Assembly (NCBI RefSeq): GCF_054482525.1 | Contig: NZ_CM137006.1 | Length of the DNA stretch: 64,000 bases | Direction: 5' to 3' (one strand) | Position numbers: made by a program | In this document: in pieces, positions 54,001-57,000 of the stretch | Layout of the letters: each line of letters begins with the position of its first letter | Position numbering within the stretch: position 1 is the stretch's first letter

Positions 54001-57000
54001 GTTAAAGCCCTGGCAGAAATAACCGGTGACTTTGCCTTCATCCATCATGTTGAAATACTTGATGACGTCGTAGGTCTGGTCCCACTTAGGCAGCCAGTCG
54101 TAGCCCCAGTTGTTCTCTTTCTGCGCGGCATCGCCGTAGAAAGATTTCATCAGGCTAACGAAGAACTTCGGATAGTTGCTCCAGTAGTTCACCTGATCAG
54201 CCAGCGTCGCTTTCGGCGTGTTCGCTTCCAGATACGACTGCAAATCAACCTGTTTTTCTGACGGCAGCGTCAGATAACCCGGCAGGCTGGTTGAGAGCAG
54301 ACCTAAGTCGGTCAGGCCCTGAATGTTGGAGTGACCACGCAATGCGTTCACGCCGCCACCAGCCATACCCATGTTACCGAGCAGCAATTGGATCATCGCC
54401 ATGGTGCGGATGTTCTGCGCACCCACGGTGTGCTGCGTCCAGCCCAGCGCGTACAGGAAGGTGGTTGTGCGATCCGGTGCGCTGGTGGAGGCTAGCACTT
54501 CACACACTTTCAGGAAGTCGGCTTTTGGCGTACCGCAGATGTTTTCAACGACGTCCGGCGTGTAGCGGGAAACGTGCGCTTTCAGCAGGTTCCACACACA
54601 GCGCGGATGAGTCAGCGTGTCATCGCGTTTCGCATAGCCGTTTTCATCGAACTGATAGTTCCAGGACGACTTATCGTATTCACGTTTTTCAGCGTCGTAG
54701 CCGCTGAACAGACCGTCTTCGAAAGCAAAATCATCACGCACCAGCAGGCTGGCATTGGTGTAATGCTTAACGTATTCGGCATTGATTTTGTTGTTTTCGA
54801 TCAGGTAGCGCAAAACGCCAGACAGGAACGTAATGTCCGTACCGGAACGAATAGGTGCGTAAATATCCGCTACAGAAGCGGTACGCGTAAAACGGGGATC
54901 GACAACGATCAAGGTTGCATCGTTGTTGTTTTTCGCTTCCATCGCCCAGCGGAAACCGACGGGATGCGCTTCAGCAGCGTTACCGCCCATCACCATTACG
55001 ACGTTAGCGTTTTTGATATCCACCCAGTGGTTGGTCATCGCACCGCGACCAAATGTTGGAGCAAGACTTGCTACCGTTGGTCCGTGTCAGACGCGCGCCT
55101 GGTTGTCTACCGCCAGCATCCCGAGGGAGCGGGCAAATTTCTGGGTCAGCATCCCGGTTTCGTTGCTGGCACCGGAGGCACACAGCATACCGGTAGAAAG
55201 CCAACGGTTTACCGTTACGCCCTGCTCGTTCTTTTCAATAAAGTTAGCGTCACGGTCAGCTTTCATCAGCTTCGCAATACGGGAGAATGCTTCTTCCCAG
55301 CTAATGCGCTGCCATTTGTCAGAACCTGGCGCACGATATTCCGGGTAGCGCAGACGGTTTTCGCTGTTGACGTAATCCAGCAAACCGGCCCCTTTCGGGC
55401 ACAGCGCACCACGGCTTACCGGATGATCCGGGTCACCTTCAATGTGATAAATCGCTTCTCTGGCGTTTTTCGCGCCATCACCCAGGCTATACATCAATAG
55501 CCCGCAACCTACGGAACAGTATGTGCAGGTGTTACGGATCTCTTTCGCGCGTAATAATTTATAGTTTCGCGCCTGAGCCAGTGCTTGCTTCGGGGCAAAG
55601 CCCAATGCCGCTACTGTTGTTCCAGCCATACCGCCCGCGCAGATTTTAAAAAATTGTCTGCGACTGACGTCCATTGCTTTCCTCTTTTTTCAGGGGTATT
55701 ACTGCGCGAGGAAACTAACAGTAAAATTCTGAATCTTTTTGCGCGAAATCAAAAAGAACACGTGTTTGCCACAAAATAATCCGCCTGCGCAAATTGACCT
55801 ACCTCAATAGCGGTAGAAAAACGCACCACTGCCTGACAGGCCAGTTAAAAAAATGCTATAAAATTCAGCTTAATTTTTAACGGCAAGAGAGACAAAACAG
55901 CGAGCATGACACGACAAAAAGCAACGCTCATAGGGCTAATAGCGATCGTCCTGTGGAGCACGATGGTAGGATTGATTCGCGGTGTCAGTGAGGGGCTCGG
56001 CCCGGTCGGCGGCGCAGCTGCTATCTATTCATTAAGCGGGCTGCTGTTAATCTTCACGGTTGGATTTCCGCGTATTCGGCAGATCCCGAAAGGCTATTTA
56101 CTCGCCGGGTGTCTGTTATTCGTCAGCTATGAAATCTGTCTGGCGCTTTCCTTAGGATATGCGGCGACCCGTCATCAGGCGATTGAAGTGGGTATGGTGA
56201 ACTATCTGTGGCCCAGCCTGACAATTCTCTTTGCCATTCTGTTTAATGGTCAGAAAACCAACTGGCTGATTGTACCAGGATTATTATTAGCCCTGGTTGG
56301 CGTCTGCTGGGTGTTAGGCGGTGACAATGGGTTACATTATGATGAAATCATCAATAATATCACCACCAGCCCATTGAGTTATTTCCTGGCGTTTATTGGT
56401 GCGTTTATCTGGGCAGCCTATTGCACAGTAACGAATAAATACGCACGCGGATTTAACGGAATTACCGTTTTTGTCCTGCTAACGGGAGCAAGTCTGTGGG
56501 TTTACTATTTTCTCACGCCACAACCAGAAATGGTATTTAGCACGCCCGTCATGATTAAACTCATCTCTGCGGCATTTACCTTAGGATTTGCATATGCTGC
56601 ATGGAATGTCGGTATATTGCATGGCAACGTCACCATAATGGCGGTAGGTTCGTATTTTACGCCCGTCCTTTCCTCTGCGCTAGCAGCCGTGCTGCTCAGC
56701 GCCCCGCTGTCGTTCTCGTTCTGGCAAGGCGCGCTAATGGTCTGCGGCGGTTCCCTGCTCTGCTGGCTGGCGACACGTCGTGGCTAAAATAATTGTCGGG
56801 TCTACGGCCCGGCAGTTAATCAGATAAATTCCGACAATATAAAAAAATAAATTTCAAATACCAGTAGTTCACCTTATATTTCATTTCGACTTCGATCACA
56901 TATCGATAAATAATATTATTTCATCTATTTTTCTCATTGTGTTTAATCACCATTCCATTTTAAAAACAGTATGTCATTTATAAATGACGCCGTTTAAAAT

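What the first reader, a model, noticed from the sequence alone, without database searches (positions are those of the whole stretch)
55675..55905. Divergent fdnG/yddG control region with a NarL 7-2-7 site
An inverted heptamer pair matching the NarL consensus lies about 125 bp upstream of the fdnG start codon, consistent with nitrate induction. I could not place the FNR site precisely.
Basis: partly seen in the sequence, partly recalled or inferred. Interest (0 to 1): 0.2.

Follow-up and report, generated by a model that had tools for sequence, protein, structure and literature searches.

The report
Known fdnG nitrate/anaerobic promoter region

Summary
The finding is confirmed and is already known. 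Window 55675-55905 is exactly the intergenic region between fdnG (- strand, ATG 55674) and yddG (+ strand, ATG 55906) of an E. coli chromosome. It differs from K-12 MG1655 at 3 of 231 bases, none inside a regulatory site.

The inverted heptamer pair is TACCGCT-AT-TGAGGTA on the fdnG strand, at 55800-55815, 126-141 bp upstream of the start codon. It is the curated NarL/NarP 7-2-7 site of fdnG (heptamers -109/-100).

All published coordinates (-124, -109, -100, -77, FNR -42.5) map to one start point, A at 55703.

In 53 of 55 other Enterobacteriaceae species a 7-2-7-like palindrome lies at essentially the same distance from the FNR box (62 bp centre to centre in 47, 61 in 3, weak in 3), although its sequence drifts.

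Two small extras may be new:
- A conserved extended -10 for yddG (TGCTATAAA, 55854-55862) lies a fixed ~50 bp from the 7-2-7.
- A strongly conserved block (ACTATTwAG, -77 to -69) does not look like a NarL heptamer.

Interest is low.

The parts
55675..55905 (.). fdnG-yddG divergent intergenic control region (231 bp)
   Evidence: ORFs; RefSeq annotation of identical DNA. 228 of 231 bases match K-12 MG1655; the differences are at 55787, 55762 and 55761.
55800..55815 (-). NarL/NarP 7-2-7 site. fdnG strand TACCGCT-AT-TGAGGTA: heptamer -109 = 55809-55815, heptamer -100 = 55800-55806, centre -104.5.
   Evidence: Sequence. Curated as the b1474 7-2-7 pair. Positions -109/-100. A 7-2-7-like palindrome sits at the same offset from the FNR box across genera.
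55824..55830 (+). NarL heptamer -124 (CACCACT on the + strand)
   Evidence: Listed for b1474 at position -124. Identical to K-12. Not conserved outside Escherichia.
55777..55783 (+). NarL heptamer -77 (TAATCCG on the + strand)
   Evidence: Listed for b1474 at position -77. Identical to K-12. Overlaps the conserved block below.
55769..55780 (-). Cross-genus conserved block at -77 to -66. Consensus is ACTATTwAG..G; E. coli reads ATTATTTTGTGG. Its binding partner is not established.
   Evidence: Near-invariant columns in 45 genus-distinct sequences. It extends beyond the annotated -77 heptamer and never has T at the position that would be base 1 of a forward NarL heptamer.
55739..55752 (-). FNR box, fdnG strand TTGATTTCGCGCAA, centre -42.5 (class II position)
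   Evidence: 2 mismatches to TTGAT-N4-ATCAA. Position -42.5. Near-invariant in all 55 other species. FNR ChIP peaks reported at yddG/fdnG.
55712..55720 (-). fdnG extended -10, TG-T-TAGTTT (hexamer 55712-55717)
   Evidence: Sequence. cTGtTAGTTT is a conserved island across 16 genera. Its role as the -10 is inferred from its position relative to +1.
55703..55703 (-). fdnG transcription start (A), inferred
   Evidence: The only +1 that satisfies all five published coordinates at once (mapped). Not measured here.
55854..55862 (+). Candidate yddG extended -10, TGCTATAAA (hexamer 55857-55862). A -35-like CTGACA lies at 55833-55838 in Escherichia only.
   Evidence: Most conserved element of the yddG-proximal half in 51 of 53 loci. 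Function inferred; no TSS data were found.
55672..55674 (-). fdnG start codon; GAGG Shine-Dalgarno at 55681-55684
55906..55908 (+). yddG start codon

Best explanation
This is the characterised fdnGHI (formate dehydrogenase-N) promoter of E. coli.

Mechanism. Under anaerobiosis FNR binds its box centred at -42.5 (55739-55752), overlapping the -35 position. It recruits RNA polymerase to a promoter that has an extended -10 (TGtTAGTTT) and no usable -35. When nitrate is present, NarX phosphorylates NarL. A NarL-P dimer then binds the high-affinity 7-2-7 inverted heptamer pair centred at -104.5 (55800-55815). Weaker flanking heptamers lie at -124 and -77. From there NarL boosts FNR-dependent initiation at A 55703. 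NarP can occupy the same 7-2-7.

Shown here: identity of the sequence to the characterised region, agreement of all published coordinates, and evolutionary conservation of the sites and their spacing.

Taken from the literature: the roles of FNR, NarL and NarP.

Inferred: that activation depends on exact distance or helical phase, because the 62-bp spacing is fixed across genera.
For: - Identity. The region is chromosomal E. coli DNA found in 5413 of 5426 complete genomes. It differs from K-12 MG1655 at 3 bases (-84, -59, -58), all outside the sites.
- Curated sites. All four curated NarL heptamers of b1474, including the flagged 7-2-7 pair, are present verbatim.
- Coordinates. The published positions -124/-109/-100/-77 and FNR -42.5 all resolve to one +1 at 55703.
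- Literature. fdn is stated to be regulated by Fnr, NarL and NarP. fdnG is one of four genes with reported 7-2-7 sites. FNR ChIP peaks lie at yddG/fdnG, and fdnG is classed as 'activated by FNR in nitrate and by NarL'.
- Comparative data from 55 species. The FNR box is near-invariant. A 7-2-7-like palindrome lies 62 bp centre to centre from it in 48 of 53 rows (52 loci plus the window; 61 bp in 3). Mean mismatch at that offset is 2.7 against a background of 8.9 +/- 0.9, and palindromic pairs number 4.0 against 1.7 +/- 0.45. The site's sequence changes between genera, for example TACTCCTTTGGGAGTA, TAATCAAAAAGGGGTA and CACCCCTTTAGGGGTA.
- No Rfam RNA family reaches its threshold in the intergenic region; the only hit is a sub-threshold mir-129 match (20.9 bits against 48.6).
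Against: - Nothing here measures binding or transcription. The transcription start is inferred from published numbering, not observed.
- With +1 at 55703 the -10 hexamer spans -14 to -9, a slightly long 8-bp discriminator, so the true start could be 1-2 nt off.
- The motif match alone is weak: 2 mismatches, 6 observed against 3.5 expected in the window.
- The simple sigma-70 scan finds no promoter. That is expected for an activator-dependent promoter without a -35.
- How NarL acts from as far as -104.5 is not explained by these data.
- The primary papers (Li & Stewart 1992; Li et al. 1994; Darwin et al. 1996, 1997; Wang & Gunsalus 2003) are not in the library. Their content is cited second-hand.
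Confidence: 0.94

Rival explanations
1. The single 7-2-7 serves both divergent promoters. Besides helping fdnG from -104.5, NarL or NarP bound there also modulates yddG. The conserved yddG extended -10 lies a fixed ~50 bp away, which would put the site at about -61 from the yddG start.
For: - TGcTATAAA is conserved upstream of yddG in 51 of 53 loci.
- The distance from the 7-2-7 centre to the first base of that hexamer is 49.5 bp (28 loci) or 50.5 bp (17 loci). The sequence in between is poorly conserved.
- Both leaders, by contrast, tolerate indels: 38-50 nt on the yddG side, and 60-65, 112, 120, 170 or 209 nt on the fdnG side.
- The only two loci without yddG upstream (L009, L053) are the only two with the 7-2-7 at about -82 from fdnG instead of -104.5.
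- NarL can activate alone by contacting alpha-CTD from -44.5, -67.5 or -77.5.
- In one Salmonella RNA-seq study yddG and fdnG move together in two contrasts.
Against: - No yddG transcription start is known to me or retrievable here.
- No paper in the library links yddG to NarL or nitrate.
- At ogt, most repositioned NarL sites gave poorly active promoters, and about -61 is roughly half a helical turn out of phase with the working positions.
- A rigid module could simply reflect crowding of fdnG-specific upstream NarL heptamers against the yddG promoter.
- L009 and L053 may represent one evolutionary event.
- The RNA-seq correlation is anecdotal.
Confidence: 0.25
2. The heptamer pair is a chance match to a degenerate consensus and has no function.
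For: It has 2 mismatches to the consensus. Matches of this quality in the 64-kb window are no more frequent than in shuffled sequence. One better match (1 mismatch, 24221) lies inside the pqqL coding sequence.
Against: It is identical to the curated, experimentally studied fdnG site. A palindrome of this type sits at the same offset across about 50 species while its sequence turns over.
Confidence: 0.01
3. The functional FNR site is the other FNR-like match in the region, 55794-55807 (TTGACCTACCTCAA), which overlaps the 7-2-7, rather than 55739-55752.
For: It also has 2 mismatches to TTGAT-N4-ATCAA.
Against: It would be centred at -97.5, not the published -42.5. It exists only in Escherichia, whereas 55739-55752 is near-invariant in all 55 species. 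About 0.16 such matches are expected by chance per 231 bp.
Confidence: 0.02

Closest known systems
E. coli K-12 fdnGHI promoter (FNR at -42.5; NarL heptamers -124, -109/-100 7-2-7, -77)
   Same: This is the same locus. 228 of 231 intergenic bases are identical, all four heptamers, the FNR box and the -10 are unchanged, and yddG is the same divergent neighbour.
   Different: Three SNPs at -84, -59 and -58 lie outside the sites. The window carries the commoner E. coli allele: 4100 genomes are >=99% identical over the -132 to -32 segment, while K-12 is at 97%.
E. coli nirB and nrfA promoters (FNR at -41.5 with a NarL/NarP 7-2-7 at -69.5 or -74.5)
   Same: They also combine a class II FNR site with an upstream 7-2-7 that binds both NarL and NarP. 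They are listed with fdnG and napF as the four genes with reported 7-2-7 sites. The positions are from my own knowledge.
   Different: At fdnG the 7-2-7 is about 30-35 bp further upstream (-104.5). The place where nirB and nrfA carry their 7-2-7 is occupied at fdnG by the conserved ACTATTwAG block and the weak -77 heptamer. Two species (L009, L053) do carry the fdnG 7-2-7 at about -82.
E. coli narG promoter (FNR -41.5; NarL heptamers around -89 and -195; IHF between them)
   Same: Nitrate induction works through NarL-P bound far upstream of a class II FNR site.
   Different: narG has no 7-2-7 and needs IHF-mediated bending. By eye I saw no IHF consensus in the fdnG region (my inspection; not formally scanned).
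E. coli ogt promoter (FNR-independent; NarL at -44.5 and -77.5)
   Same: NarL binds 7-2-7 sites and contacts the RNA polymerase alpha-CTD. This is the only directly shown activation mechanism that could be relevant to a possible effect on yddG.
   Different: ogt needs no FNR. Its working positions are -44.5, -67.5 and -77.5, not -104.5 or about -61.

Membership tests
Characterised E. coli fdnG (formate dehydrogenase-N) promoter | Lies immediately upstream of fdnG, the selenocysteine-containing alpha subunit gene followed by fdnH and fdnI | tested here: met
   ORFs; annotation of identical DNA; SECIS_3 at 55034-55092, 84 bits.
Characterised E. coli fdnG (formate dehydrogenase-N) promoter | Sequence collinear with the K-12 control region | tested here: met
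   228 of 231 intergenic bases identical, no gaps.
Characterised E. coli fdnG (formate dehydrogenase-N) promoter | NarL heptamers TACCGCT / TACCTCA arranged 7-2-7 at -109/-100, plus heptamers at -124 and -77 | tested here: met
   All four curated heptamers are found verbatim. Their spacing matches the published coordinates.
Characterised E. coli fdnG (formate dehydrogenase-N) promoter | FNR box centred at -42.5 | tested here: met
   TTGATTTCGCGCAA at 55739-55752 lies exactly 62 bp from the 7-2-7 centre, as -104.5 against -42.5 requires.
Characterised E. coli fdnG (formate dehydrogenase-N) promoter | Transcription start and its induction by anaerobiosis and nitrate | not testable with these tools
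   +1 at 55703 is inferred from published numbering. Expression cannot be measured here.
NarL/NarP 7-2-7 binding site | Two heptamers resembling TACYYMT in inverted orientation with a 2-bp spacer | tested here: met
   6/7 + 6/7 matches with a 2-bp spacer. 6 of 7 positions pair as a palindrome (my count).
NarL/NarP 7-2-7 binding site | Bound by phospho-NarL and NarP dimers | not testable with these tools
   Literature statement only. The primary footprinting papers are not held.
NarL/NarP 7-2-7 binding site | Under purifying selection as a site: position and dyad symmetry kept while the sequence drifts | tested here: met
   89% of 54 distinct regions have <=3 mismatches at one offset; no other offset exceeds 6%.
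Class II FNR-dependent promoter | FNR dyad TTGAT-N4-ATCAA overlapping the -35 region (about -41.5), no good -35 hexamer, and a usable -10 | tested here: met
   Box at -49 to -36. No sigma-70 -35/-10 pair is found by the scan. Conserved TGtTAGTTT.

The most novel reading that the evidence does not exclude
The yddG-fdnG intergenic core is a rigid module of about 150 bp, conserved across at least 15 genera of Enterobacteriaceae. One NarL/NarP 7-2-7 is held at fixed distances from both divergent promoters: 62 bp from the fdnG FNR box and about 50 bp from a conserved yddG extended -10. In this reading nitrate signalling also controls the aromatic amino-acid/paraquat exporter YddG. A second, very strongly conserved element (ACTATTwAG at -77 to -69) binds something other than a canonical NarL heptamer reader, for example alpha-CTD or an unidentified factor that bridges NarL at -104.5 to FNR and RNA polymerase.
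Probability: 0.2. Interest if true: 0.4.

Novelty: already known. Interest (0 to 1): 0.12.

Why it matters
As submitted, the finding re-identifies a textbook promoter, so it matters only as a correct annotation. It also completes that annotation: the FNR box, the flanking heptamers, the -10 and +1 can now all be placed in window coordinates.

The comparative by-products are of modest specialist interest.
- The exact 62-bp NarL-FNR spacing, kept while the NarL site sequence turns over, argues for a stereospecific long-range NarL-FNR/RNA polymerase arrangement. How that arrangement works is, to my knowledge, not settled.
- The fixed distance to a conserved yddG -10 raises a cheap, testable question: is yddG nitrate-regulated?
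- The ACTATTwAG block is a concrete target for mutagenesis.

Tried and rejected
- Consensus scans alone. Neither the NarL 7-2-7 nor the FNR pattern is enriched in the window over shuffles, so they cannot establish function or choose between the two FNR-like hits. I used published coordinates and cross-species conservation instead.
- The generic sigma-70 and terminator scan found nothing in 55600-55980. This is uninformative for an FNR-dependent promoter and for a -10 that ends in A.
- The primary papers were not in the library: PMC180993, PMC206306, PMC151514, PMC3068693. A search for '104.5' found none.
- A yddG transcription start was sought in two genome-wide data sets. One has no supplements held. 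The other holds only ortholog tables, with no matching coordinates.
- Rfam found no RNA family above threshold in the intergenic region.
- I compared the -77 to -66 block by eye with the IHF, Fis, ModE, Fur, ArcA and MarA/SoxS consensus sequences, and with a -10 on either strand. None fitted across genera. These are informal inspections, not tool tests. Read as a second 7-2-7 (offset 30, centre about -71.5) it is the second-best offset but poor, with mean mismatch 5.1 and no GTA in the right half.
- The best 7-2-7-like hit in the window (24221, 1 mismatch) lies inside pqqL and was dismissed as chance.
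Full report
**1. What is at the coordinates**

The window is E. coli chromosomal DNA. 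A 431-bp query spanning the region matches 5413 of 5426 complete E. coli genomes, many at 100%. The match is annotated as fdnG (formate dehydrogenase-N alpha subunit) on one side and yddG (aromatic amino-acid efflux DMT transporter) on the other.

- fdnG runs on the - strand from ATG 55674. Its first ORF is 195 aa (MDVSRRQFFKIC...) and stops at an in-frame TGA, followed by an 803-aa ORF. A 59-nt SECIS_3 match (84 bits against a gathering score of 63) spans that TGA, so this is the usual selenocysteine codon.
- yddG starts at 55906 on the + strand.

**2. The observation**

On the fdnG strand the region contains TACCGCT-AT-TGAGGTA at 55815 to 55800. This is an inverted heptamer pair with a 2-bp spacer. 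Each half matches the NarL consensus TACYYMT at 6 of 7 positions.

As a pattern hit alone it proves little. At <=2 mismatches the window has 6 hits against 3.5 expected from shuffles. The best-scoring hit (24221, 1 mismatch) lies inside the pqqL coding sequence. For a 231-bp target the chance expectation is about 0.013.

**3.

Against K-12 MG1655 the intergenic region aligns without gaps and differs at three bases: 55787, 55762 and 55761.

The MotifAdjuster supplement reproduces the curated NarL sites for b1474/fdnG:

| Flanked site | Heptamer | Orientation |
|---|---|---|
| CAGGCAGTGGTGCGTTT | CACCACT | reverse |
| TTTTCTACCGCTATTGA | TACCGCT | forward |
| GCTATTGAGGTAGGTCA | TACCTCA | reverse |
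| GAAGGCGGATTATTTTG | TAATCCG | reverse |

TACCGCT and TACCTCA are flagged there as a 7-2-7 pair. All four heptamers are unchanged in the window. The only difference within these flanked strings is the SNP at 55787, outside the heptamer.

A second paper gives the positions as FNR at -42.5 and NarL heptamers at -77, -100, -109 and -124. I mapped heptamer centres onto the window:

| Window position | Published position |
|---|---|
| 55827 | -124 |
| 55812 | -109 |
| 55803 | -100 |
| 55780 | -77 |

All four give the same +1, the A at 55703. With that +1, -42.5 falls at 55745.5. That is the centre of TTGATTTCGCGCAA (55739-55752), one of two FNR-like matches in the region.

The other FNR-like match (55794-55807) overlaps the 7-2-7, would be centred at -97.5, and exists only in Escherichia. 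I reject it.

The fdnG -10 is TAGTTT (55712-55717) preceded by TG-T, an extended -10. No -35 is detectable, as expected for a class II FNR promoter.

Independent literature support:
- fdn is regulated by Fnr, NarL and NarP.
- fdnG is one of four genes with reported 7-2-7 sites, which bind both NarL and NarP dimers.
- FNR ChIP peaks lie at yddG/fdnG.

**4. Comparative evidence**

I scanned one genome per species with a degenerate pattern for the FdnG N-terminus. This returned 55 loci from Escherichia, Salmonella, Citrobacter, Enterobacter, Leclercia, Kosakonia, Phytobacter, Silvania, Pluralibacter, Yokenella, Trabulsiella, Pseudenterobacter, Shimwellia and several MAGs.

Every locus has the FNR box TTGATTTnnCGCAA (one reads ...CTCAA). 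I anchored the sequences on that box without gaps.

- A 7-2-7-like palindrome starts exactly 63 bp upstream of the box (62 bp centre to centre) in 89% of 54 distinct sequences at <=3 mismatches.
- Mean mismatch at that offset is 2.74, against 8.88 +/- 0.93 over 207 other offsets.
- Palindromic pairs average 3.98, against 1.67 +/- 0.45.
- The site's sequence differs between genera: TACCGCTATTGAGGTA, TACTCCCTTATGGGTA, TAATCAAAAAGGGGTA, TACTCCTTTGGGAGTA and CACCCCTTTAGGGGTA. The outer TA...GTA is kept.

Position and dyad symmetry are thus conserved while the sequence drifts. This is the signature of a selected dimer-binding site and of a strict spacing requirement relative to FNR and RNA polymerase. 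The -124 heptamer is not conserved outside Escherichia.

**5.

(a) A conserved block at -77 to -66. The strongest conservation outside the FNR box and the -10 is a block with consensus ACTATTwAG..G; E. coli reads ATTATTTTGTGG at 55769-55780.

- It overlaps the annotated -77 heptamer (-80 to -74), but the invariant columns run from -77 to -69 and -66. Columns -80 to -78 vary.
- The base that would be T1 of a forward heptamer is never T (0 of 45).
- Read as a second 7-2-7 (centre about -71.5) it is the second-best offset but poor, with mean mismatch 5.1.
- I could not assign it. A weak NarL site extended by another constraint, an alpha-CTD docking site between NarL and FNR, or an unknown factor all remain possible.

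(b) A conserved yddG promoter element. yddG is the divergent neighbour in 53 of 55 loci. It carries a conserved extended -10, TGcTATAAA (window 55854-55862).

| Interval | Observed lengths |
|---|---|
| 7-2-7 centre to first base of yddG hexamer | 49.5 bp (28 loci), 50.5 bp (17), other values within 48.5-52.5 (6) |
| yddG -10 to yddG ATG | 38-50 nt |
| FNR box to fdnG ATG | 60-65, 112, 120, 170 or 209 nt |

The 40 bp between the 7-2-7 and the yddG hexamer are poorly conserved in sequence, yet the length is fixed. The core from the yddG -10 through the 7-2-7, block and FNR box to the fdnG -10 is therefore a rigid module.

If yddG starts about 7 nt after its hexamer, the 7-2-7 lies at about -61 from it. 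The two loci without yddG upstream (L009 Shimwellia; L053, a MAG) are the only two whose 7-2-7 sits at about -82 from fdnG.

This suggests, but does not show, that the site is shared. Evidence against:
- No yddG start is known here.
- No accessible paper links yddG to NarL or nitrate.
- At ogt, NarL activates from -44.5, -67.5 and -77.5, and most other positions were poor.

An RNA-seq table from Salmonella Infantis shows yddG and fdnG changing in parallel in two contrasts. That is only anecdotal.

**6. Mechanism**

Shown here: sequence identity with the characterised promoter, internal agreement of all published coordinates, and conservation of the sites and their spacing.

From the literature: FNR activates anaerobically from -42.5. 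NarL-P, phosphorylated by NarX or NarQ in response to nitrate, binds the 7-2-7 and the flanking heptamers and is required for nitrate induction. NarP also binds 7-2-7 sites. From my own recollection of Darwin et al. 1997 and Wang & Gunsalus 2003, which I could not read here, NarP binds at fdnG but activates poorly and can antagonise NarL.

Inferred: activation is stereospecific, because the 62-bp spacing is fixed to within 1 bp across genera and the only alternative position seen is about two helical turns closer.

**7. Verdict**

The feature is already known, so interest is low (0.12). The shared-site idea and the unexplained block are recorded as a modest novel case (probability about 0.2; interest 0.4 if true).

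Noticed in passing
window 55034-55092 (- strand): SECIS_3 element (84.3 bits against a gathering score of 63) spanning the in-frame TGA at 55087-55089 that splits fdnG into 195-aa and 803-aa ORFs. This is the expected selenocysteine-196 recoding signal.
   Followed up: partly
window 55769-55780 (fdnG -77 to -66); L003-L057: Block ACTATTwAG..G is nearly invariant across about 15 genera. It is more conserved than the NarL 7-2-7 itself, only partly overlaps the annotated -77 heptamer, and matched no consensus I tried.
   Followed up: partly
window 55854-55862 (+), 55833-55838 (+): Conserved extended -10 (TGCTATAAA) for yddG, at a fixed ~50 bp from the NarL 7-2-7 centre in 51 of 53 species. A -35-like CTGACA occurs only in Escherichia and abuts the -124 NarL heptamer.
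   Followed up: partly
L009 (Shimwellia pseudoproteus) and L053 (Enterobacteriaceae MAG), upstream of fdnG: The only two loci without a divergent yddG. Both carry the 7-2-7 (TACTCACTAAAGGGTA, TACTCCATTAGAAGTA) at about -82 from the inferred fdnG start instead of -104.5, and both lack the ACTATTwAG block.
   Followed up: partly
L003, L007, L013, L015 and other Citrobacter loci; L036/L039 (Salmonella); L035; L014: The fdnG leader downstream of the promoter carries lineage-specific insertions: about 48-57 bp in Salmonella and many Citrobacter, about 107 bp in Phytobacter, about 146 bp in Enterobacter wuhouensis. The promoter core stays rigid. The content of the insertions was not examined.
   Followed up: no
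window 55794-55807: A second FNR-like match (TTGACCTACCTCAA, 2 mismatches) overlaps the promoter-proximal NarL heptamer. It is present only in Escherichia and is probably a by-product of the 7-2-7 sequence.
   Followed up: yes
window 57046-58146, 58310-59575, 59617-60891 (+): Downstream of yddG the window has an intact 366-aa porin ORF where K-12 and ATCC 8739 carry only a truncated yddL pseudogene. It also has two leucine-rich-repeat protein ORFs (421 and 424 aa) where ATCC 8739 has one.
   Followed up: no
window 24221-24236: The best 7-2-7 consensus match in the window (TACCTATACCGGAGTA, 1 mismatch) lies at the 3' end of the pqqL coding sequence and is most likely chance. This pqqL segment is a rare allele: only 3 genomes are >=99% identical.
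   Followed up: partly
and summaries: Six of the 5415 matches to the fdnG-yddG region in complete E. coli assemblies are annotated as lying on plasmids. Possibly large chromosomal segments on plasmids or mis-assigned replicons.
   Followed up: no
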